From NCBI GenBank assembly GCA_965205425.1, contig CBDBGZ010000004.1, positions 192,001 through 256,000 of the forward strand: 64,000 nucleotides of DNA, in the 5' to 3' direction. Source of the stretch: Nitrosopumilus sp. GTDB lineage: Archaea; Thermoproteota; Nitrososphaeria; Nitrososphaerales; Nitrosopumilaceae. This document shows positions 30,779-53,265 of this stretch, in pieces. The position numbers and the translations under genes are program-made. The notes below the pieces were generated by a model. It was given only the letters and a program-made list of their open reading frames with translations. It was not told where the DNA came from and made no database searches. The first letter of the stretch is position 1; each line of letters begins with the position of its first letter.

Positions 30779-31045
30779 TTGCAGGAGGTAGGCGAAATAA
30801 TGCACCTAGCCGGTAGTGGCAGGGTAATCATTCAACTATCAACAGAATTAGTTGAAGGACAAATACTCTGTGACGAAAAGGGAACTAGAGTTGCAAAAGT
30901 AAATGAACTAATAGGTCCAGTAAAAAGACCGTTTGCGTCAGCAACGCCATTAACAAACAATATTAAAAAATACATTGGCAAAAATGTTTTCGCATCTCAA
31001 GAATCTCCTGCTAACAAACCAAAAAAATTTAGGAGAAGAAAATAA
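30779..31045 (+). CDS. gar1: H/ACA RNP protein Gar1
   Basis: LIGPVKRPF motif; between srp19 and tfb. Confidence 0.85.
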   Translation: MQEVGEIMHLAGSGRVIIQLSTELVEGQILCDEKGTRVAKVNELIGPVKRPFASATPLTNNIKKYIGKNVFASQESPANKPKKFRRRK

Positions 31046-31998
31046 TGAACATACAAGAAAAACAAAACTGTCCTGAATGTAAATCTACATTAGTAGATGA
31101 CATGCAGAATGGTGAAATCATCTGTTCTGGTTGCGGCGTAGTAGTCGATGATCAGATTGCAGATTTTGGTCCAGAAACCATTAGCTCAAACTTCGAAGAC
31201 AAGATGAAGCTTGCAAGAGCAACCGGACAAACAACATATTCCCAACATGATTTGGGAATAACTACTGAGATTTCAATCAGTGCAAAAGACTTTAGTGGAA
31301 AAACAATCAACCATGATGTCGCAAATCAAATGCACAATCTCAGAAAGTGGCAACAAAGAGTAAGAGTTTCCTCACCAAGAGAGAGAAGATTAGCAAATGT
31401 TTTAACAAAAATGGGTGAAACATGCGATGGTCTTAGTCTTTCAAAGAATGTTTTGGAAACTGCATCTATGATATACAGAAACTTGGATGGACATGTTGAT
31501 GTGAAGGGAAAATCAGTAGTTAGCATTACAGCTGCTACAATCTACATGGCATGCAAACAATGTGATGTAGTAAGATCATTAGAAGAAATTTGCCGAGGAA
31601 TTTGTCCAGCAAAAGATGTTAAATCAAAAACAAAACTTGCAGCTAGATACTATCGAACCATGGTAATGGAAATGGGACAATTACATGCCCCAGTTGTAAC
31701 CATGGACAAATACATCTCAAAGATAGCAAACATGACACAGACTGAGGTCAGAGTTGAAAGACTAGCCTTGGAAATTGCTGAAAAAACCAAAGACAGCAGT
31801 ATTGCGGATGGAAAGGCTCCAAACGGAATTGCCGCAGCATATCTGTATGTAGCATCTGTCCTACTTGGTCAAAATGTCCTACAAAGAGACGTTTCAAGTA
31901 TTGCAGGAGTCACAGAAGTCACTATCAGAAATAGATGTAAAGAAATTCTAACATGCTACAAACTCAAAATTACTTTGAGACCATCTCTGGCCAACTAA
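31045..31998 (+). CDS. tfb: Transcription initiation factor TFB
   Basis: CPEC..CSGCG zinc ribbon, two cyclin repeats, GVTEVTIRNR. Confidence 0.96.
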   Translation: MNIQEKQNCPECKSTLVDDMQNGEIICSGCGVVVDDQIADFGPETISSNFEDKMKLARATGQTTYSQHDLGITTEISISAKDFSGKTINHDVANQMHNLRKWQQRVRVSSPRERRLANVLTKMGETCDGLSLSKNVLETASMIYRNLDGHVDVKGKSVVSITAATIYMACKQCDVVRSLEEICRGICPAKDVKSKTKLAARYYRTMVMEMGQLHAPVVTMDKYISKIANMTQTEVRVERLALEIAEKTKDSSIADGKAPNGIAAAYLYVASVLLGQNVLQRDVSSIAGVTEVTIRNRCKEILTCYKLKITLRPSLAN

Positions 31999-32872: not shown

Positions 32873-32904
32873 TCAATTTTAAATAAAACCTTTTTCAAAA
32901 AAAT

Positions 32905-35747
32905 GGTGCTGTCCAATTTTGCCAATTTCGGACATGAATTGCATGATTCTTGCACAGAAATATGCAGAACAGACTCCACATACGGCCATATGGATCAAGG
33001 CCGTCACTGCAATGCCGTGATTTTGTGCCAAAATGACACGCACCGACACATAGCTTACGCTAGGGCCGGACCCCTATTCCGGACACGCAATGTCAGGATA
33101 TCAGGTTGTAGCAGACGCACATGATGGTCAACTGCAGTCTTCTTACAGACTCGCTTCTTGCGCGAGCCACCGCACCGAACCTCTCCTTGATTACAGAAAA
33201 CACGTCCTCGACCAGACTGCGCTGATGGTATGCCATTTCAAACCCTTTAGGATCATCGCGATGCCATCGCAACATCTTGCCCATCGGTGTAAATCCGCGT
33301 GGGACAGAGTTCCCCTTGGGGCATATTACCGGCCTGCGTCCGCTGTCAGTTATGACCCTGCAGTTCTCCCCTGCAAGGTATGCCGCATCAAGCAGCACGT
33401 CACCTGAACCCTGTGGCATCCTTGCAAACATGGTACGAAATACCGGCGAGTCATGCGTCCTTCCACAGGTCACCTCGCATGCAGATATCATTCCATGCGG
33501 GGCCACAAGTATGTGCAGCTTGTCAAATCCGCGCCTTGACACCAGTCCCTTCTTGGCATCCTCCCAGTCCTCGTATTTTGCTATGGAGAACCCCGACGAG
33601 TCGCCTCCAAGACTGCCGTGTGTGTCGTCTCCGGCCTGTGCCAGTAACAGTCCCTTGATCTGCCCCATGCGTCCGGAGAGTGACTTTGCCATGTTTCCCA
33701 GGGTGGATTTGGAGGGGATCTTTTTTAAGCCATAGGTGTTTACCGTACCTTGGTGCAGCTCCATGTATGGTATGTGTTTAGGTCACGCCTAGATTAAACC
33801 GAATAATTTAGATCAGAGAAGAATTTTCAAGAAATAATGGACTCTAAACCGTGCAAAAACTGTGATGATTTGGCAAGAAAAAATATAGAATTGGAAATCA
33901 AAATCAAGCAGCTAGAATCAAAATTATCTTACTATGATAACCCAAACTCTCCGCCATCATCTGATTCTCTCCATTGGAGGAAACAAAAGAAGAACAGAAA
34001 ATCAAACCATCACAACAAACCAGGACAAAAGCCGGGACACAAGGGAACAACTACTAATTTCAAACCAACAGAGACCATTCTTCACAAAACAGACCAATGC
34101 TCAATATGTAGCAGCAAGAAGATAGAACAAACCACACAACAAACCAGAATCATTGCAGAAATTCCAAAACCGCAACCAGTTATCATAACCAAACACGTAA
34201 TCCACTCATACTTTTGCAACAACTGCGGCAACACAACGACATCTGATTGTGCAATACCCCAGAAAGGAAATTTGGGATTTAATTTGACAGGGATCATACT
34301 ATCTCTGTGGTCAGCTAGAATTACACTAAGAAACATTGCAAAGATGCTTCAATCATTTTATTGTATAAAAATATCTGCAGGTACAATCAACAATTGTCTG
34401 TGTAACACTTCTGCAGCACTAGAACCTGTCGTAGAGAAAATCAGAGATGACATCTGTACCTCAAAATCTGCGCATTTTGATGAGACAAAATATTCCATTC
34501 ATGGAAATACGGGATGGGTATGGACTGGAGTGAACCAGAACTCGTGTTTTATCACAGTTGAGAAAAGTCGAGGCAAAAATGTGTTACAGAAACATTTCCC
34601 ATCATTTGCAGGAGTTGCAGTCTGTGACGGATGGATGCCATACCATATGTTTAGTATCAGACAGAGGTGCTGGGCCCACATACTGCGTGAGGCAAGACAC
34701 ACATCAGAAAAACTAGAAACAGACAATTCTACCTCATTGTATCAATCTTTGAAAGAATTGTTTGTATACATCACATTATACAAAATAGAAAAACCAAATT
34801 ATTTTCTGTATGATTCTGCCATACTGTCATTGGAGCAAATCCTGTTACAATATACTGATGATGAATCATTACAAAAATTTCTAACCAAGATTAATAACGC
34901 AAAGAATAACCTGTTCACATTTTTGCTATATCCAGGAGTGGAACCAACAAACAATGCAGCTGAGCGTGCATTACGAGAGTCAGTAATTTGTAGAAAGATT
35001 CGTGGATGTGTTAGGAATGAGAAGGGTATGAGAATGTTTGGAAATTTAATGAGTTGTATTATGACATGGAAGGTTAGGAATTGCAATATTTTAGATGAAA
35101 TTGTGAAATATGTGTGAGTCTGGACCTAAACACGTACCATGTATGTAACGTGGATTCTGTACGAGTGGTTGTGAAACACCATGTCCAGTACGCATAACAG
35201 CGAGGCAATCTCGGCATCGGTAGCATCTTTCCACACGGAGGGGATCAGCTTCTTGATTCGCTTGATCCTTGCCCTTATCTTCTTGCTCTCGCCCCTTCTA
35301 TTCTTCTCATATTGTGAGTAGTTGCGATACTTTCGTGCCTTGAGATTTCTGACGTGCTTGCGGTATTGTGTTACGTGTGCACCGTACAGTGCGTTCCTGT
35401 GCTTCTTTTTCCCAGTCATTACATGTACCAGTCATTTGGTGATCAAAAAACATGGCGGAATCCGTCATGATCTATAAGCTTTTCGCAAGTTTTGCGGAAA
35501 AAATTTGGACAGCACCCTCTCGCCCCTTCTATTCTTCTCATATTGTGAGTAGTTGCGATACTTTCGTGCCTTGAGATTTCTGACGTGCTTGCGGTATTGT
35601 GTTACGTGTGCACCGTACAGTGCGTTCCTGTGCTTCTTTTTCCCAGTCATTACATGTACCAGTCATTTGGTGATCAAAAAACATGGCGGAATCCGTCATG
35701 ATCTATAAGCTTTTCGCAAGTTTTGCGGAAAAAATTTGGACAGCACC
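32905..35747 (-). mobile_element. GC-rich IS5-family (IS903-like) element, copy A, interrupted by IS66 and carrying a duplicated 231-bp left end (35517-35747)
   Basis: TIR GGTGCTGTCCAA; 9-bp TSD CAAAAAAAT (32896-32904 / 35748-35756); transposase split into 33093-33764 and 35126-35419. Confidence 0.93.
33770..35137 (+). mobile_element. IS66-family element, copy 2 (transposase 33837-35117)
   Basis: Same TIRs and length as copy 1; 8-bp TSD CATGTATG inside the IS903-like transposase. Confidence 0.95.
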
Positions 35748-47892: not shown

Positions 47893-48041
47893 CTTTCAAA
47901 AATTGTAGTACTTTTTTTGCTTCTAAACCCTTGGATTCATTTTTAGTCATGAAAAAATATCATTCTGATCTAAAAAATTATAAGAATTACATGTTTTTCA
48001 AAACAATGATCATGTATTGTAACAAATTGGATCAATCATGC

Positions 48042-49455
48042 GGTGCTGTCCAAATTTTTTCCGCAAAACTTGCGAAAAGCTTATAGATCCAGTACTTGGG
48101 AAAGTAGATTTCAGTTGTACGATTTTCACTAGTTTTTTTATGTTAATTTTGTGCCTATGAAAATATCATGCTCAAATTATAGCACTGACAAAAATATCGT
48201 CATGAAATCAGTATGAACTAACCGAAATTCAAAGAATCAAATTTTACTTTCCCAAGTACTGTAGATCATGACGGATTCCGCCATGTTTTTTGATCACCAA
48301 ATGACTGGTACATGTAATGACTGGGAAAAAGAAGCACAGGAACGCACTGTACGGTGCACACGTAACACAATACCGCAAGCACGTCAGAAATCTCAAGGCA
48401 CGAAAGTATCGCAACTACTCACAATATGAGAAGAATAGAAGGGGCGAGAGCAAGAAGATAAGGGCAAGGATCAAGCGAATCAAGAAGCTGATCCCCTCCG
48501 TGTGGAAAGATGCTACCGATGCCGAGATTGCCTCGCTGTTATGCGTACTGGACATGGTGTTTCACAACCACTCGTACAGAATCCACGTTACATACATGGA
48601 GCTGCACCAAGGTACGGTAAACACCTATGGCTTAAAAAAGATCCCCTCCAAATCCACCCTGGGAAACATGGCAAAGTCACTCTCCGGACGCATGGGGCAG
48701 ATCAAGGGACTGCTACTGGCACAGGCCGGAGACGACACACACGGCAGTCTTGGAGGCGACTCGTCGGGGTTCTCCATAGCAAAATACGAGGACTGGGAGG
48801 ATGCCAAGAAGGGACTGGTGTCAAGGCGCGGATTTGACAAGCTGCACATACTTGTGGCCCCGCATGGAATGATATCTGCATGCGAGGTGACCTGTGGAAG
48901 GACGCATGACTCGCCGGTATTTCGTACCATGTTTGCAAGGATGCCACAGGGTTCAGGTGACGTGCTGCTTGATGCGGCATACCTTGCAGGGGAGAACTGC
49001 AGGGTCATAACTGACAGCGGACGCAGGCCGGTAATATGCCCCAAGGGGAACTCTGTCCCACGCGGATTTACACCGATGGGCAAGATGTTGCGATGGCATC
49101 GCGATGATCCTAAAGGGTTTGAAATGGCATACCATCAGCGCAGTCTGGTCGAGGACGTGTTTTCTGTAATCAAGGAGAGGTTCGGTGCGGTGGCTCGCGC
49201 AAGAAGCGAGTCTGTAAGAAGACTGCAGTTGACCATCATGTGCGTCTGCTACAACCTGATATCCTGACATTGCGTGTCCGGAATAGGGGTCCGGCCCTAG
49301 CGTAAGCTATGTGTCGGTGCGTGTCATTTTGGCACAAAATCACGGCATTGCAGTGACGGCCTTGATCCATATGGCCGTATGTGGAGTCTGTTCTGCATAT
49401 TTCTGTGCAAGAATCATGCAATTCATGTCCGAAATTGGCAAAATTGGACAGCACC
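48042..49455 (+). mobile_element. IS903-like element, copy B (transposase 48317-49267), with a MITE in its left end
   Basis: TIR GGTGCTGTCCAA; flanked by CAATCATGC; DSSG, KLHI, LLDAAY, YHQRSLVE motifs. Confidence 0.95.
48090..48261. mobile_element. 172-bp MITE (ISH3-type ends)
   Basis: Perfect 17-bp TIR CAGTACTTGGGAAAGTA; 6-bp TSD TAGATC; absent from copies A and C. Confidence 0.93.
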
Positions 49456-49464
49456 CAATCATGC

Positions 49465-50700
49465 GGTGCTGTCCAAATTTTTTCCGCAAAACTTGCGAAA
49501 AGCTTATAGATCATGACGGATTCCGCCATGTTTTTTGATCACCAAATGACTGGTACGTGTAATGACTGGGAAAAAGAAGCACAGGAACGCACTGTACGGT
49601 GCACACGTAACACAATACCGCAAGCACGTCAGAAATCTCAAGGCACGAAAGTATCGCAACTACTCACAATATGAGAAGAATAGAAGAGGCGAGAGCAAGA
49701 AGATAAGGGCAAGGATCAAGCGAATCAAGAAGCTGATCCCCTCCGTGTGGAAAGATGCTACCGATGCCGAGATTGCCTCGCTGTTATGCGTACTGGACAT
49801 GGTGTTTCACAACCACTCGTACAGAATCCACGTTACATACATGGAGCTGCACCAAGGTACGGTAAACACCTATGGCTTAAAAAAGATCCCCTCCAAATCC
49901 ACCCTGGGAAACATGGCAAAGTCACTCTCCGGACGCATGGGGCAGATCAAGGGACTGTTACTGGCACAGGCCGGAGACGACACACACGGCAGTCTTGGAG
50001 GCGACTCGTCGGGGTTCTCAATAGCAAAATACGAGGACTGGGAGGATGCCAAGAAAGGGCTGGTGTCAAGGCGCGGATTTGACAAGCTGCACATACTTGT
50101 GGCCCCGCATGGAATGATATCTGCATGCGAGGTGACCTGCGGAAGGACGCATGACTCGCCGGTATTTCGTACCATGTTTGCAAGGATGCCGCAGGGTTCA
50201 GGTGACGTGCTGCTTGATGCGGCATACCTTGCAGGGGAGAACTGCAGGGTCATAACTGACAGCGGACGCAGGCCGGTAATATGCCCCAAGGGGAACTCTG
50301 TCCCACGCGGATTTACACCGATGGGCAAGATGTTGCGATGGCATCGCGATGATCCTGAAGGGTTTGAAATGGCATACCATCAGCGCAGTCTGGTCGAGGA
50401 CGTGTTTTCTGTAATCAAGGAGAGGTTCGGTGCGGTGGCTCGCGCAAGAAGCGAGTCTGTAAGAAGACTGCAGTTGACCATCATGTGCGTCTGCTACAAC
50501 CTGATATCCTGACATTGCGTGTCCGGAATAGGGGTCCGGCCCTAGCGTAAGCTATGTGTAGGTGCGTGTCATTTTGGCACAAAATCACGGCATTGCAGTG
50601 ACGGCCTTGATCCATATGGCCGTATGTGGAGTCTGTTCTGCATATTTCTGTGCAAGAATCATGCAATTCATGTCCGAAATTGGCAAAATTGGACAGCACC
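49465..50700 (+). mobile_element. IS903-like element, copy C (transposase 49562-50512)
   Basis: 1236 bp; flanked by CAATCATGC at 49456-49464 and 50701-50709. Confidence 0.95.
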
Positions 50701-50744
50701 CAATCATGCAATATCCTTATAAGCAATTTATGCATAGTGTAGCC

Positions 50745-50867
50745 ATGTCCGAGATGGTTTGGAAGTGTTTTAGATGCAATTTATCATTCAAGGACGACCA
50801 ACTTGCTGAAATGCACAAGCAAATTTCAGAACATTCTGTTACTAAAGTAAAGACAATTGTAGCATAA
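50745..50867 (+). CDS. Small C2H2 zinc-finger protein (40 aa)
   Basis: WKCFRCNLSF.......H....H; TATA-like TTATAA at ~50717. Confidence 0.7.
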   Translation: MSEMVWKCFRCNLSFKDDQLAEMHKQISEHSVTKVKTIVA

Positions 50868-50911: not shown

Positions 50912-51011
50912 TGCAGAGGGTGGGATTCGAACCCACGAACTCCTGAGAGAAGGGATTACCCATATATGGATCTTGAGTCCCTCTCGGTTGACCGGGCTTC
51001 GATACCTCTGC
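50912..51011 (-). tRNA. tRNA-Leu(CAA) with 15-nt intron (50957-50971)
   Basis: Acceptor GCAGAGG/CCTCTGC, anticodon CAA, long variable arm, GTTCGAATC. Confidence 0.95.
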
Positions 51012-52110: not shown

Positions 52111-53265
52111 TTAACGTCTAGATTTCTTTTTAGCTGCAGTCTTTTTCTTTGCTGGTCTCTTTTTAGCTGCAGTCTTTTTCTTTGCTGGTCTCTTTTTAGC
52201 TGCAGTCTTTTTCTTTGCTGGTCTCTTTTTAGCTGCAGTCTTTTTCTTTGCCGGTCTCTTTTTAGCTGCAGTCTTTTTCTTTGCTGGTCTCTTTTTAGCT
52301 GCAGTCTTTTTCTTTGCTGGTCTCTTTTTAGCTGCAGTCTTTTTCTTTGCTGGTCTCTTTTTAGCTGCAGTCTTTTTCTTTGCTGGTCTCTTTTTAGCTG
52401 CAGTCTTTTTCTTTGCTGGTCTCTTTTTAGCTGCAGTCTTTTTCTTTGCTGGTCTCTTTTTAGCTGCAGTCTTTTTCTTTGCTGGTCTCTTTTTAGCTGC
52501 AGTCTTTTTCTTTGCTGCGGCTTTTCGTCTATTAGCCAACAATTCTTTTAATTTTAAATGTGCTTTATCTAATGATTTTTGGGCAGTTTCTTCTGCTTTT
52601 GTTCGTCTCTCCAAATCTTTTAGGAATTTTTGTACAGATTTGTGACTTGCTGCTTTGGTTTCTCGAAGAGGTGGTTTTGATTTAGTTTGTTTTTGAATCT
52701 TTGAAACAATTTTTGATTTAATATCAGAGAAATCAGTAACATCACCTGAAATCTTTTTTGCAGTTTTTTGTCTACTTTTAATTTCTTCAACCAATTCATT
52801 GACATGATCATTTAATGAGCGTAATCTAGTCTCAGCATTTTGTTTTTCTAGAGGATTTTCAGCAAATTCAATTTCTTGTTCAGTCTGTTCGATTGCCTCT
52901 TTTTCAGTAGCCAATCTGGCCTCTGCAGCAGCAACCAATCTCCCAATACTTTCCAATTGAGAGTTCTTCCTAGTTAAAACAGTGGAAACATCAGTAGATT
53001 CTTCTTTTTCGGATTCTATTTTCTTATCAAGAGAATGTAAACCAGAAACAGAACGTTTTTCAGCGGTACGAAATTCTTTAACTTGTTCTTCTGCTTTTTT
53101 ACGTAATTTGGTTGCTTCTTGTTTCTTTTGTCGTAATTGAATTACTAGTTTTTCTAATGATGCCAATGATTGAATCAAGACAAATGGCTCGGTTAAGTGG
53201 TGGACATAATCAGGATTTGACTTGCAAGTTAAGAAAATTAACTTAATTTGATCGCTAAAAATCAT
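52111..53265 (-). CDS. Coiled-coil protein with histone-H1-like Lys/Ala/Pro tail (start probably TTG 53166)
   Basis: Long E/K coiled coil followed by (AKKKTAAKKRP)n. Confidence 0.85.
   Translation of the reverse strand: MIFSDQIKLIFLTCKSNPDYVHHLTEPFVLIQSLASLEKLVIQLRQKKQEATKLRKKAEEQVKEFRTAEKRSVSGLHSLDKKIESEKEESTDVSTVLTRKNSQLESIGRLVAAAEARLATEKEAIEQTEQEIEFAENPLEKQNAETRLRSLNDHVNELVEEIKSRQKTAKKISGDVTDFSDIKSKIVSKIQKQTKSKPPLRETKAASHKSVQKFLKDLERRTKAEETAQKSLDKAHLKLKELLANRRKAAAKKKTAAKKRPAKKKTAAKKRPAKKKTAAKKRPAKKKTAAKKRPAKKKTAAKKRPAKKKTAAKKRPAKKKTAAKKRPAKKKTAAKKRPAKKKTAAKKRPAKKKTAAKKRPAKKKTAAKKRPAKKKTAAKKKSRR
52126..52517. repeat. 33-bp coding tandem repeat, ~12 units
   Basis: CTTTTTAGCTGCAGTCTTTTTCTTTGCTGGTCT; one synonymous variant at 52251. 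Confidence 0.97.

What the first reader, a model, noticed from the sequence alone, without database searches (positions are those of the whole stretch)
48033..50712. IS903-like element inserted twice into the same 9-bp target and carries an internal 11-nt match to that target
Seen: CAATCATGC occurs three times (48033, 49456, 50701), framing two tandem full copies. The neighbours B and C differ at about 10 positions by my manual comparison, while B differs from distant copy A (32905) at only one I could see, so this is not a recent local duplication but two separate insertions in one register. The empty site reads GGATC-AATCATGCAAT-ATCC, and AATCATGCAAT also lies in the element's own non-coding 3' tail (49412-49422; 50657-50667), at the 3' end of a hairpin. 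Inference: targeting may be aided by an element-encoded RNA or by a transposase-binding subterminal motif that the target mimics. RNA guidance is known for IS110 and IS200/605 systems but, to my knowledge, not for IS5-family DDE elements. Caveat: copy A has the same tail yet sits at a non-matching site (CAAAAAAAT).
Basis: partly seen in the sequence, partly recalled or inferred. Interest (0 to 1): 0.72.

Follow-up and report, generated by a model that had tools for sequence, protein, structure and literature searches.

The report
Archaeal transposon stacks beside TATA box
Two copies of a jumping gene sit head to tail because this archaeal transposon family tends to land exactly seven bases upstream of a promoter's TATA box, a spot that each insertion recreates; the proposed RNA guide is not supported.

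Summary
The tandem is real: 9-bp duplication–copy B–duplication–copy C–duplication, B and C differing at 10 sites (B also carries an unnoticed 172-bp MITE). The 11-nt tail match exists but does not generalise: 0 of 43 new homologous sites match their own tail at ≥9 nt, and the tail has no conserved RNA fold. What explains the site is promoter anchoring: in 29 of 80 homologous insertions (17 genomes) a TATA core starts exactly 7 nt beyond the duplication (1.4 expected), on one side only, with a BRE-like signal and outward genes; 27 of 170 further single ends repeat it. The window's site is such a position, 7 nt upstream of the TATA box of a 40-codon gene, so a first insertion recreates the target and a second stacks next to the promoter. 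Tethering by TBP/TFB is inferred, not shown. Works like bacterial TnGBS/ISLre2/ISKra4 and yeast Ty3; my searches found no archaeal report. The scan noted TATA anchoring before on other archaeal DNA (IS6, DPANN IS5-like, stacking). Side finding: the 3' tail carries helically phased A/T steps and a conserved motif 158 bp from the right end.

The parts
48033..48041 (+). 9-bp target duplication, promoter-distal copy
48042..49455 (+). IS copy B (1414 bp), inferred older; IS5-like DDE element
48090..48261 (.). 172-bp MITE with 17-bp inverted ends, followed by a 6-bp duplication (48262-67); inserted just after B's own TATA box; shares its ends with a 1320-bp family whose transposase best matches ISH3 (135 bits, below the 225 cut-off); 4 copies in the genome
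48317..49267 (+). transposase ORF of B, 316 aa, intact
49456..49464 (+). 9-bp target duplication forming the head-to-tail junction; junction also in a contig of run X5
49465..50700 (+). IS copy C (1236 bp), promoter-proximal, inferred newer
49504..49511 (+). C's own BRE-TATA-like promoter core, conserved in most relatives
   Evidence: promoter function inferred
49562..50512 (+). transposase ORF of C, 316 aa; D148, D219, E279 invariant in 15 relatives; Pfam DDE_Tnp_1
50513..50700 (+). 188-nt non-coding tail with AA/TT steps phased at about 10.5 bp in register with the right end (same in B, 49268-49455)
50542..50558 (+). conserved subterminal motif, 157-160 nt from the right end in 18 of 22 representatives (in B 49297-49313)
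50657..50667 (+). 11-mer matching the empty target (in B 49412-49422); judged coincidental
50701..50709 (+). 9-bp target duplication, promoter-proximal copy: the recreated target
50710..50716 (+). 7-nt spacer at the BRE position
50717..50724 (+). TATA box that anchors the insertion site
50745..50867 (+). 40-codon ORF (CxxC..H, weak zinc-finger-like Pfam hits below cut-off) starting 28 nt after the TATA start; kept in the C5 haplotype with one change
32905..35747 (-). copy A: 231-bp left-end fragment (35517-35747) plus a full copy split by an IS66 (33770-35136), all within one 9-bp duplication (32896-32904, 35748-56)

Best explanation
A clade of IS5-like DDE insertion sequences in Nitrosopumilaceae-type archaea inserts preferentially at one fixed position relative to the archaeal core promoter: the promoter-side edge of the 9-bp (10-bp in one lineage) duplication lies 7 nt upstream of the TATA box, i.e. 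just outside the BRE, in either element orientation (shown statistically). Insertion leaves BRE-TATA and the gene intact, and the promoter-side copy of the duplication stays at the same distance, so the target is recreated. Here B inserted first upstream of the small gene at 50745, and a second, slightly different copy C later landed in the promoter-side duplication, giving duplication-B-duplication-C-duplication (inferred, about 0.7). The likeliest molecular cause is that the transpososome is positioned by the TBP-TFB complex or by TBP-bent DNA (inferred, about 0.55; direct reading of the TATA element by the transposase is the main alternative). The 11-nt tail match plays no part.
For: TATA core (WTAWW) exactly 7 nt beyond the duplication in 29 of 80 sites vs 1.37 per background offset; 12 of first 37 and 17 of next 43; 18 of 80 with a TATA model trained only on this genome's upstream regions vs 0.56; maximum over all offsets in 10,000 shifted-site nulls was 12 (±60 nt) and 15 (±10 nt); holds after dropping any one of 11 end types and with one site per type; core at 7-9 in 48 of 80 and in 14 of 17 genomes; independent replication in 27 of 170 single ends vs 1.34. 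One-sided: six A/T at 7-12 on the right in 23, left in 22, both in 1 (P 0.002); opposite flank featureless when oriented. Promoter-like: A at -4 and -3 in 62% and 52% vs 27% and 31% of control cores; outward ORF start in 25 of 50 TATA sides vs 9 of 43 opposite sides (P 0.005), seven at 28-31 nt, the genome's leaderless spacing. Sharp peak with background at 12-19 nt argues against selection alone. The window site fits exactly; of the element's 8 known sites 4 have the strict core and 6 have six A/T at that offset (counted by hand). Re-use is seen elsewhere: two different elements hit the same 9-mer, 7 nt upstream of a relative's own TATA box, at different loci of two genomes. A matrix from 67 other sites ranks the empty site at the 99.7th percentile, the promoter-side recreated site at the 96th and the distal one at the 57th. 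B carries a MITE, as expected of the older copy. Control families of the same genome, including a 971-bp element that passes the NF033579 cut-off, are not anchored at 7 (1 of 12).
Against: About 40-45% of sites show no TATA-like signal at the offset. Promoters are predicted from sequence; no transcript data. The strict start-codon test was weak (7 of 29 vs 13 of 131, P 0.057). Junctions like B-C are rare: only this genome among 269 searched (one other hit looks like chance), so stacking is not routine. Copies recombine, so B≠C is not proof of two events. Run X5 holds the junction while its contig across this locus is empty, which this model does not explain by itself. The nested site in copy A is not TATA-anchored. 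A small excess of ≥9-nt matches to the whole cognate element (17 of 71 vs 7.8-9.8 expected) is unexplained, though absent in 21 further sites.
Confidence: 0.78

Rival explanations
1. Same fixed-distance preference, but the transposase itself reads the TATA-like, A/T-rich bendable DNA with one subunit; no host transcription factor is involved and promoter targeting is a by-product.
For: All evidence is sequence-based; the anchored motif could be read directly. DDE transposases commonly read flanking sequence (PMC2577343, passages). The BRE would lie under the transposase footprint, which could clash with TFB (inference).
Against: A symmetric dimer reading DNA should favour both flanks, yet both-sided sites are under-represented (1 of 80, P 0.002); the BRE-like A at -4/-3 and outward genes go beyond a bare TATA motif.
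Confidence: 0.33
2. One transposition put a copy at this promoter-anchored site; the tandem then arose by recombination (an element-plus-9-bp circle or unequal exchange) and B and C diverged by gene conversion from other copies.
For: Four allele pairs at two SNP columns show recombination among copies; run X1 has roughly ten-fold element depth, so donors for conversion exist; run X5 holds the junction although its contig over this locus is empty, as a mobile circle or moved dimer would give.
Against: Needs conversion along almost the whole element (differences at positions 93-1096) and gain or loss of the MITE; forming the first junction by 9-bp homology is inefficient (established knowledge); re-use of one exact register by two different elements is seen in relatives.
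Confidence: 0.15
3. The second copy was directed next to the first copy's inverted repeat, as IS30 and IS911 do.
For: IR-targeting is documented for IS30 (PMC9333248, passages); nested insertions in relatives cluster near ends.
Against: Three nested sites near left ends sit 7 nt upstream of a TATA-like motif of the host element and rank 1st, 1st and 5th of about 1240 positions by the target matrix; right end-spacer-left end junctions occur in only 1 of 269 genomes.
Confidence: 0.05
4. One reading: an element-encoded RNA or a subterminal motif mimicked by the target guides or boosts insertion.
For: The doubly used site is one of 3 loci among 1241 candidate promoter positions with an 11-nt tail match; 2 of 80 homologous sites have 11-nt tail matches (0.14 expected); whole-element ≥9-nt matches 17 of 71 vs 8.6 in shuffles (P 0.003).
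Against: 0 of 43 replication sites reach 9 nt in the tail; matches scatter over both strands, all registers and the whole element; no excess in 21 further IS5-like sites; 7 other targets of this element do not match; 11-mer not conserved, no consensus fold, no Rfam family; many regions and thresholds were tried.
Confidence: 0.04
5. The tandem is an assembly merge of two haplotypes.
For: The assembly is mixed: 5.2% contamination and 88-95% identical duplicate regions between contigs; no piece listed spans the whole stretch.
Against: A separately assembled contig of run X5 (another study code than X1) covers 49426-50091 across the junction with one difference; a merge would not be expected to keep an exact third copy of the duplication.
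Confidence: 0.03

Closest known systems
TnGBS ICEs, ISLre2 family and ISKra4-group IS (p-MULT 3/4; Guérillot et al. 2014, PMC3942029; passages and Discussion read)
   Same: DDE elements inserting at a fixed distance upstream of core promoters (15-17 bp upstream of the sigma-A -35 box), in both orientations when the inverted repeats are near-perfect; a contact with the initiation complex was proposed there.
   Different: Those are bacterial Mutator-like transposases and sigma-A promoters; this is an IS5-like (DDE_Tnp_1) transposase and an archaeal BRE-TATA promoter, offset 7 nt. That paper only suggests for archaeal ISH6 that an AT-rich duplicated motif might favour promoters.
Ty3 of budding yeast (PMC6673722; passages)
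   Same: Position-specific integration at promoters; Brf1 plus TBP suffice in vitro, and TFB/TBP are their archaeal counterparts (established knowledge).
   Different: Retrotransposon integrase, Pol III genes, insertion at the start site rather than upstream of the BRE; binding is shown for Ty3 and untested here.
IS903 / IS903 group of the IS5 family
   Same: About 1.2 kb, one ORF, ends starting GG, 9-bp duplications (IS903 9 bp in Table 1 of PMC2577343); best NCBIfam match NF033579 IS5 family.
   Different: Score 85.7 is under the 140 cut-off; IS903's target consensus is symmetric, whereas this clade's is one-sided and TATA-anchored; a 165-215-nt 3' tail is kept here.
Double insertion of TEs into one target (McGurk and Barbash, bioRxiv 10.1101/158386; passages)
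   Same: Head-to-tail dimers with the target duplication at the junction, favoured at preferred targets; bacterial dimers cited there. Tandem casposons in one target are reported for Thaumarchaeota (PMC6563490, passages).
   Different: There the preference is a palindromic motif; here it is a fixed distance to a promoter.
IS5 internal-bend (IB) region of E. coli (PMC2753651, PMC11677980; passages)
   Same: A 3'-terminal region of about 180 bp with in-phase A-tracts.
   Different: IB holds an IHF site and activates neighbouring sigma-70 promoters; the archaeal tail has a different conserved motif 158 bp from the end and its function is untested.
IS110/IS1111 bridge/seek RNA systems (PMC11187229, PMC11208160; search listings and abstract starts only)
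   Different: DEDD recombinases with structured guide RNAs matching targets; here a DDE enzyme with inverted repeats and duplications, no consensus fold and no consistent target match.

Membership tests
IS5 family, IS903 group | DDE transposase of the DDE_Tnp_1 type with conserved D, D, E | tested here: met
   PF01609 62.7 bits over cut-off 23; D148, D219, E279, R275, K286 invariant in 15 rows; confident model, weak Foldseek matches only to DDE enzymes, highest TM 0.51 to Tn5 transposase
IS5 family, IS903 group | Score above the curated IS5 family model cut-off | tested here: not met
   NF033579 best hit at 85.7 bits vs 140; it is matched by 15 of 15 rows and gives the best E-value
IS5 family, IS903 group | Single ORF, short inverted repeats starting GG, 9-bp duplication | tested here: met
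   68 of 80 sites 9 bp, 12 of 80 10 bp; the GG-end criterion for the group is recalled, the 9 bp is in PMC2577343 Table 1
IS5 family, IS903 group | Symmetric target consensus as in IS903 | tested here: not met
   signal is one-sided; opposite flank flat once oriented
IS5 family, IS903 group | Phylogenetic placement among named IS903-group elements | not tested
   trees hold only session sequences, with open deep nodes; no named reference elements
Promoter-targeting elements (TnGBS/ISLre2/ISKra4, Ty3 type) | [quoted passage not shown] | tested here: met
   29 of 80 and 27 of 170 at offset 7
Promoter-targeting elements (TnGBS/ISLre2/ISKra4, Ty3 type) | Mutator-like (p-MULT) transposase | tested here: not met
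   no Mutator family hit in Pfam to E 0.1 or NCBIfam to E 1 for this protein: works like them, is not a member
Promoter-targeting elements (TnGBS/ISLre2/ISKra4, Ty3 type) | Dependence on, or contact with, the initiation complex | not testable with these tools
   needs an in vitro or genetic test
RNA-guided IS (IS110/IS1111, IS200/IS605) | DEDD or HUH enzyme | tested here: not met
   DDE_Tnp_1
RNA-guided IS (IS110/IS1111, IS200/IS605) | Conserved structured non-coding RNA | tested here: not met
   RNAalifold 0 pairs on 18 tails; mean z -0.43, -0.27, 0.25 in three segments of 21 tails; no Rfam hit but a tRNA outside the element
RNA-guided IS (IS110/IS1111, IS200/IS605) | Fixed guide segment that covaries with targets | tested here: not met
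IS30/IS911-type IR-targeting elements | Frequent right end-left end junctions | tested here: not met
   1 convincing case in 269 genomes; circles not testable here

The most novel reading that the evidence does not exclude
An archaeal IS5-like transposase docks on the TBP-TFB complex of the basal transcription machinery and integrates just outside the BRE, a prokaryotic cut-and-paste counterpart of Ty3, while a 158-bp, helically phased right-end segment with a conserved motif wraps or loops as part of the transpososome.
Probability: 0.42. Interest if true: 0.82.

Novelty: new variant of a known kind. Interest (0 to 1): 0.64.

Why it matters
It replaces a speculative RNA guide with a well-supported and directly testable rule: an autonomous 1.2-kb archaeal IS clade finds promoters at single-base precision and spares them. 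If TBP/TFB tethering is confirmed it extends the Ty3 and TnGBS safe-harbour strategy to the archaeal, eukaryote-like initiation complex and to a third transposase lineage, gives a minimal two-factor system for studying tethered integration, and suggests a promoter-mapping or safe-landing tool for archaea. It also predicts which copy in a stack is newest and why these elements hit their own promoters.

Tried and rejected
Tail-guide and subterminal-mimic tests: an early 2-of-37 signal did not replicate; the L061 tail allele inside its match is shared by 4 of 12 copies, so it is not site-specific. A symmetric IS903-like consensus predicted sites well but proved to be a mix of two promoter orientations. 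RNA structure of the tail: none. My first label of the MITE as IS1595-type was wrong. Complex prediction of transposase with TBP and the TFB core: no verdict, score 0.00, controls not folded; not evidence either way. No RNA holder listed. Metagenome scans found no relatives; the viral-contig scan timed out; PDB sequence search gave nothing relevant; the sigma-70 scan is not applicable to archaea. The 'inward gene' measure was too lenient to inform. Trees have open deep nodes, and one row was probably a wrong frame. Nested junctions in G384 lack duplications and rank low in the target matrix; they were not counted as insertions. Small-share runs were not used.
Full report
1. The observation. 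Copy C is 1236 bp with a 316-aa ORF; copy B is 1414 bp because a 172-bp MITE and a 6-bp duplication sit just after its own TATA box. The MITE shares its ends with a 1320-bp family whose transposase best matches ISH3. B and C differ at 10 positions; inner copy A differs from B at one. Copy A is a 231-bp left-end fragment followed by a full copy split by an IS66, all inside one duplication. The empty site exists on contig C5, a 93.5% identical second haplotype in this mixed assembly, and in contigs of 4 of 4 runs laid; run X1 has the empty joint at depth 981 against flanks of about 2300-2600, so both alleles occur on the window-type background. A contig of run X5 spans the right end-9-mer-left end junction, which argues against an assembly merge; oddly, X5's contig across this locus is empty (216 pieces were not shown).

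2. The element. Pfam DDE_Tnp_1, invariant D148/D219/E279, best NCBIfam model NF033579 (IS5 family) at 85.7 bits, under its 140 cut-off. Relatives were found in 25 of 348 family genomes and in none of the other families among 401 phylum genomes searched; the named records are a Thaumarchaeota and a Cenarchaeum assembly, so the host is taken as Nitrosopumilaceae-type (inference). It is IS5/IS903-like, not a tested member.

3. Site collection. From 211 loci held at that point (redundant; 12 from this genome excluded) I kept 81 distinct element copies with paired ends and an exact duplication and dropped one without orientation, leaving 80 sites in 17 genomes, 68 with 9-bp and 12 with 10-bp duplications. 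One further insertion (L113) collapsed with L109 because its flanks are identical.

4. Test of the tail idea. An 11-nt tail match arises at 0.12% of random positions. In the first 37 sites the mean longest match equalled background (6.16 vs 6.10) but two sites reached 11 nt, at 120 and 190 nt from the end, on opposite strands and in other registers than the window's. In the next 43 none reached 9 nt (1.1 expected), and in the last 80 nt none of 80 did. Against the whole cognate element there is a small excess, 17 of 71 standard-length sites at ≥9 nt versus 7.8, 8.6 and 9.75 under three nulls, scattered over both strands and all registers, unrelated to TATA anchoring (9 of 40 vs 8 of 31) and absent in a pre-registered third set of 21 IS5-like sites of this genome (4 vs 4.6). 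Seven other targets of the same element share 4-5 nt with the tail. The tail shows no consensus fold, no unusual stability and no Rfam family. The guide idea is not supported; the residual excess is reported as unexplained.

5. What fixes the register. The pooled sites first looked like a weak palindrome, and a matrix from 67 of them put the window's empty site at the 99.7th percentile and in the best register within ±20 nt. A TATA model trained on this genome's upstream regions hit 18 of 80 sites at one offset (background 0.56). With the core WTAWW, 29 of 80 sites have it starting exactly 7 nt beyond the duplication (background 1.37; 12 of 37 and 17 of 43); shifted-site nulls searching all offsets never exceeded 12 or 15; dropping any end type or taking one site per type leaves it. 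Cores at 7-9 cover 48 of 80 (background 4.0), and 27 of 170 single ends not in the 80 repeat the peak (background 1.34). The signal is one-sided (right 23, left 22, both 1) and the far flank is flat once oriented, so the palindrome was a mix of two orientations. Anchored cores carry a BRE-like A at -4/-3, and an outward ORF starts on that side in 25 of 50 versus 9 of 43 cases, with a cluster at 28-31 nt; the stricter start-codon test was only suggestive (P 0.057). Offsets 12-19 are at background, so survival bias alone, which would give a step, does not fit. In this genome the related 1026-bp family shows 3 of 9 strict and 5 of 9 lenient, while a 971-bp element that passes the NF033579 cut-off shows 1 of 12 and ten other families show no peak at 7.

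6. The tandem. The window site reads duplication, 7 nt, TATA box, then an ATG 28 nt on, opening a 40-codon ORF kept in the C5 haplotype. Of the element's 8 known sites, 4 have the strict core at 7 and 6 have six A/T there (counted by hand; for three sites only one flank is visible). After one insertion the promoter-side duplication is still 7 nt from the TATA box (matrix percentile 96 vs 57 for the distal copy), so a second insertion gives the observed stack with the newer copy next to the promoter; B's MITE fits B being older. Exact re-use is seen in relatives: two different elements entered the same 9-mer, 7 nt upstream of a relative's own TATA box, at different loci of G387 and G389, and three nested sites rank 1st, 1st and 5th of about 1240 positions in their host elements (the G017 case used a related element as host). 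Against: such junctions are rare (only this genome convincingly among 269), copies recombine (four allele pairs at window 49557/49687 across B, C, X3 and X5), and the X5 junction is unexplained, so a recombinational origin keeps about 15%.

7. Mechanism. Shown: fixed, one-sided distance to a TATA-like motif with promoter features. Inferred: that these are active promoters; that C came second; that TBP-TFB or TBP-bent DNA positions the transpososome (about 0.55) rather than the transposase reading TATA directly (about 0.33).

8. The tail. All relatives keep a 165-215-nt tail (one 326 nt). A motif I wrote from their alignment lies 157-160 nt from the right end in 18 of 22 representatives while its distance from the stop codon varies from 27 to 40; the other four best matches (136, 148, 148, 179) are weak. 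Between motif and end, lineages share only 17-47% identity, yet AA/TT steps are phased at about 10.5 bp in register with the end: 0 of 3000 random phase shifts reach the power seen in nine lineages; peaks fall 2.1-4.1 nt (mod 10.5) from the end in 17 of 19 elements, 14 of 19 significant alone; flanks and ORF show nothing; Rayleigh tests at 11-12 bp are also significant, and summed power peaks at 10.6. This points to a DNA bend or wrap, with E. coli IS5's 177-bp bent 3' end as precedent (PMC2753651, PMC11677980; passages).

9. Relation to what is known. Fixed-distance promoter targeting is known for bacterial TnGBS, ISLre2 and ISKra4 (PMC3942029; passages and Discussion) and yeast Ty3 (PMC6673722; passages); double insertion with a duplication at the junction is known (10.1101/158386; passages); IR-targeting is known for IS30 (PMC9333248; passages); the palindromic model and IS903 consensus are in PMC2577343 (passages). 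The thaumarchaeal mobilome survey lists IS5 elements without target analysis in the section read (PMC6563490; passages and section 14). Searches for an archaeal report: one search returned 0 papers; none of the 30 listed of 95 described it by title or abstract start; one search likewise for 15 of 18. The library lacks most subscription journals, and I read no supplements; site tables of PMC3942029 and PMC6563490 could bear on novelty. This scan's own unchecked notes report the same habit in other archaea (23 findings; IS5/IS903-like DPANN elements at 6 nt; stacking, e1-6414082); they are not counted as support.

10. Verdict. Real tandem; RNA guidance not supported; best explained by TATA-anchored insertion that recreates its own target. 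New variant of a known kind; interest 0.64.

Noticed in passing
window 50513-50700 and 49268-49455; homologous tails (L002-L168): 3' tail with AA/TT steps phased at about 10.5 bp to the right end and a conserved motif 158 bp (15 turns) from the end across lineages with background identity; no consensus RNA fold.
   Followed up: yes
run X5, window 49426-50091: A contig carries the B-C junction at depth 39.6 while the contig across this locus is empty at 51.4: the junction may exist elsewhere (moved dimer, circle) or a filled allele was not shown.
   Followed up: partly
L109:1840-4350 (G387), L113/L198 (G389): Two different elements inserted at the same 9-mer, positions 45-53 of a relative, 7 nt upstream of its own TATA box, at different chromosomal loci.
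   Followed up: yes
71 homologous sites: Small excess of 9-11-nt matches between target and the whole cognate element (17 vs 8-10 expected), not replicated in 21 further sites.
   Followed up: yes
G000 971-bp and 1026-bp families (L261, L262): Their left-end regions show the same 10.5-bp AA/TT phasing (phase 2.0 and 2.3; P <0.01 and 0.04), so end phasing may be wider among IS5-like elements.
   Followed up: no
G157 copies (L034, L048, L057-L067): A 12-bp in-frame repeat of variable copy number near the transposase start makes copies 1271-1343 bp long.
   Followed up: no
L002, L008, L051, L077-L084 (G002, G160): One lineage makes 10-bp rather than 9-bp duplications but keeps the 7-nt distance on the promoter side.
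   Followed up: partly
G000 C5, C8, C9 (e.g. C9:75670): A roughly 130-bp repeat with 9 copies contains a close match to the tail motif; its family was not identified.
   Followed up: partly
G000 whole assembly: Mixed-strain assembly: C4 overlaps C5, C6, C8 and C9 at 84-95% identity, and C8 repeats 10-11 kb blocks of itself and C9; at least a dozen IS and MITE families with 4-37 copies.
   Followed up: partly
G000 1132-bp family (TAA duplication): 10 of 26 sites have a WTAWW core 3 nt beyond the duplication (background 1.1); may be its own target motif or another anchoring distance.
   Followed up: no
window about 52125-52517: Near-perfect 33-bp tandem repeat on the minus strand of ORF 52111-53265, encoding a lysine/alanine/arginine-rich repeat.
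   Followed up: no
window 31045-31998: A divergent TFB paralogue (36% to another TFB of the genome) lies just upstream of the ABC ATPase gene next to copy A.
   Followed up: no
window 50912-51011: tRNA gene with an apparent intron 200 nt downstream of the tandem.
   Followed up: no
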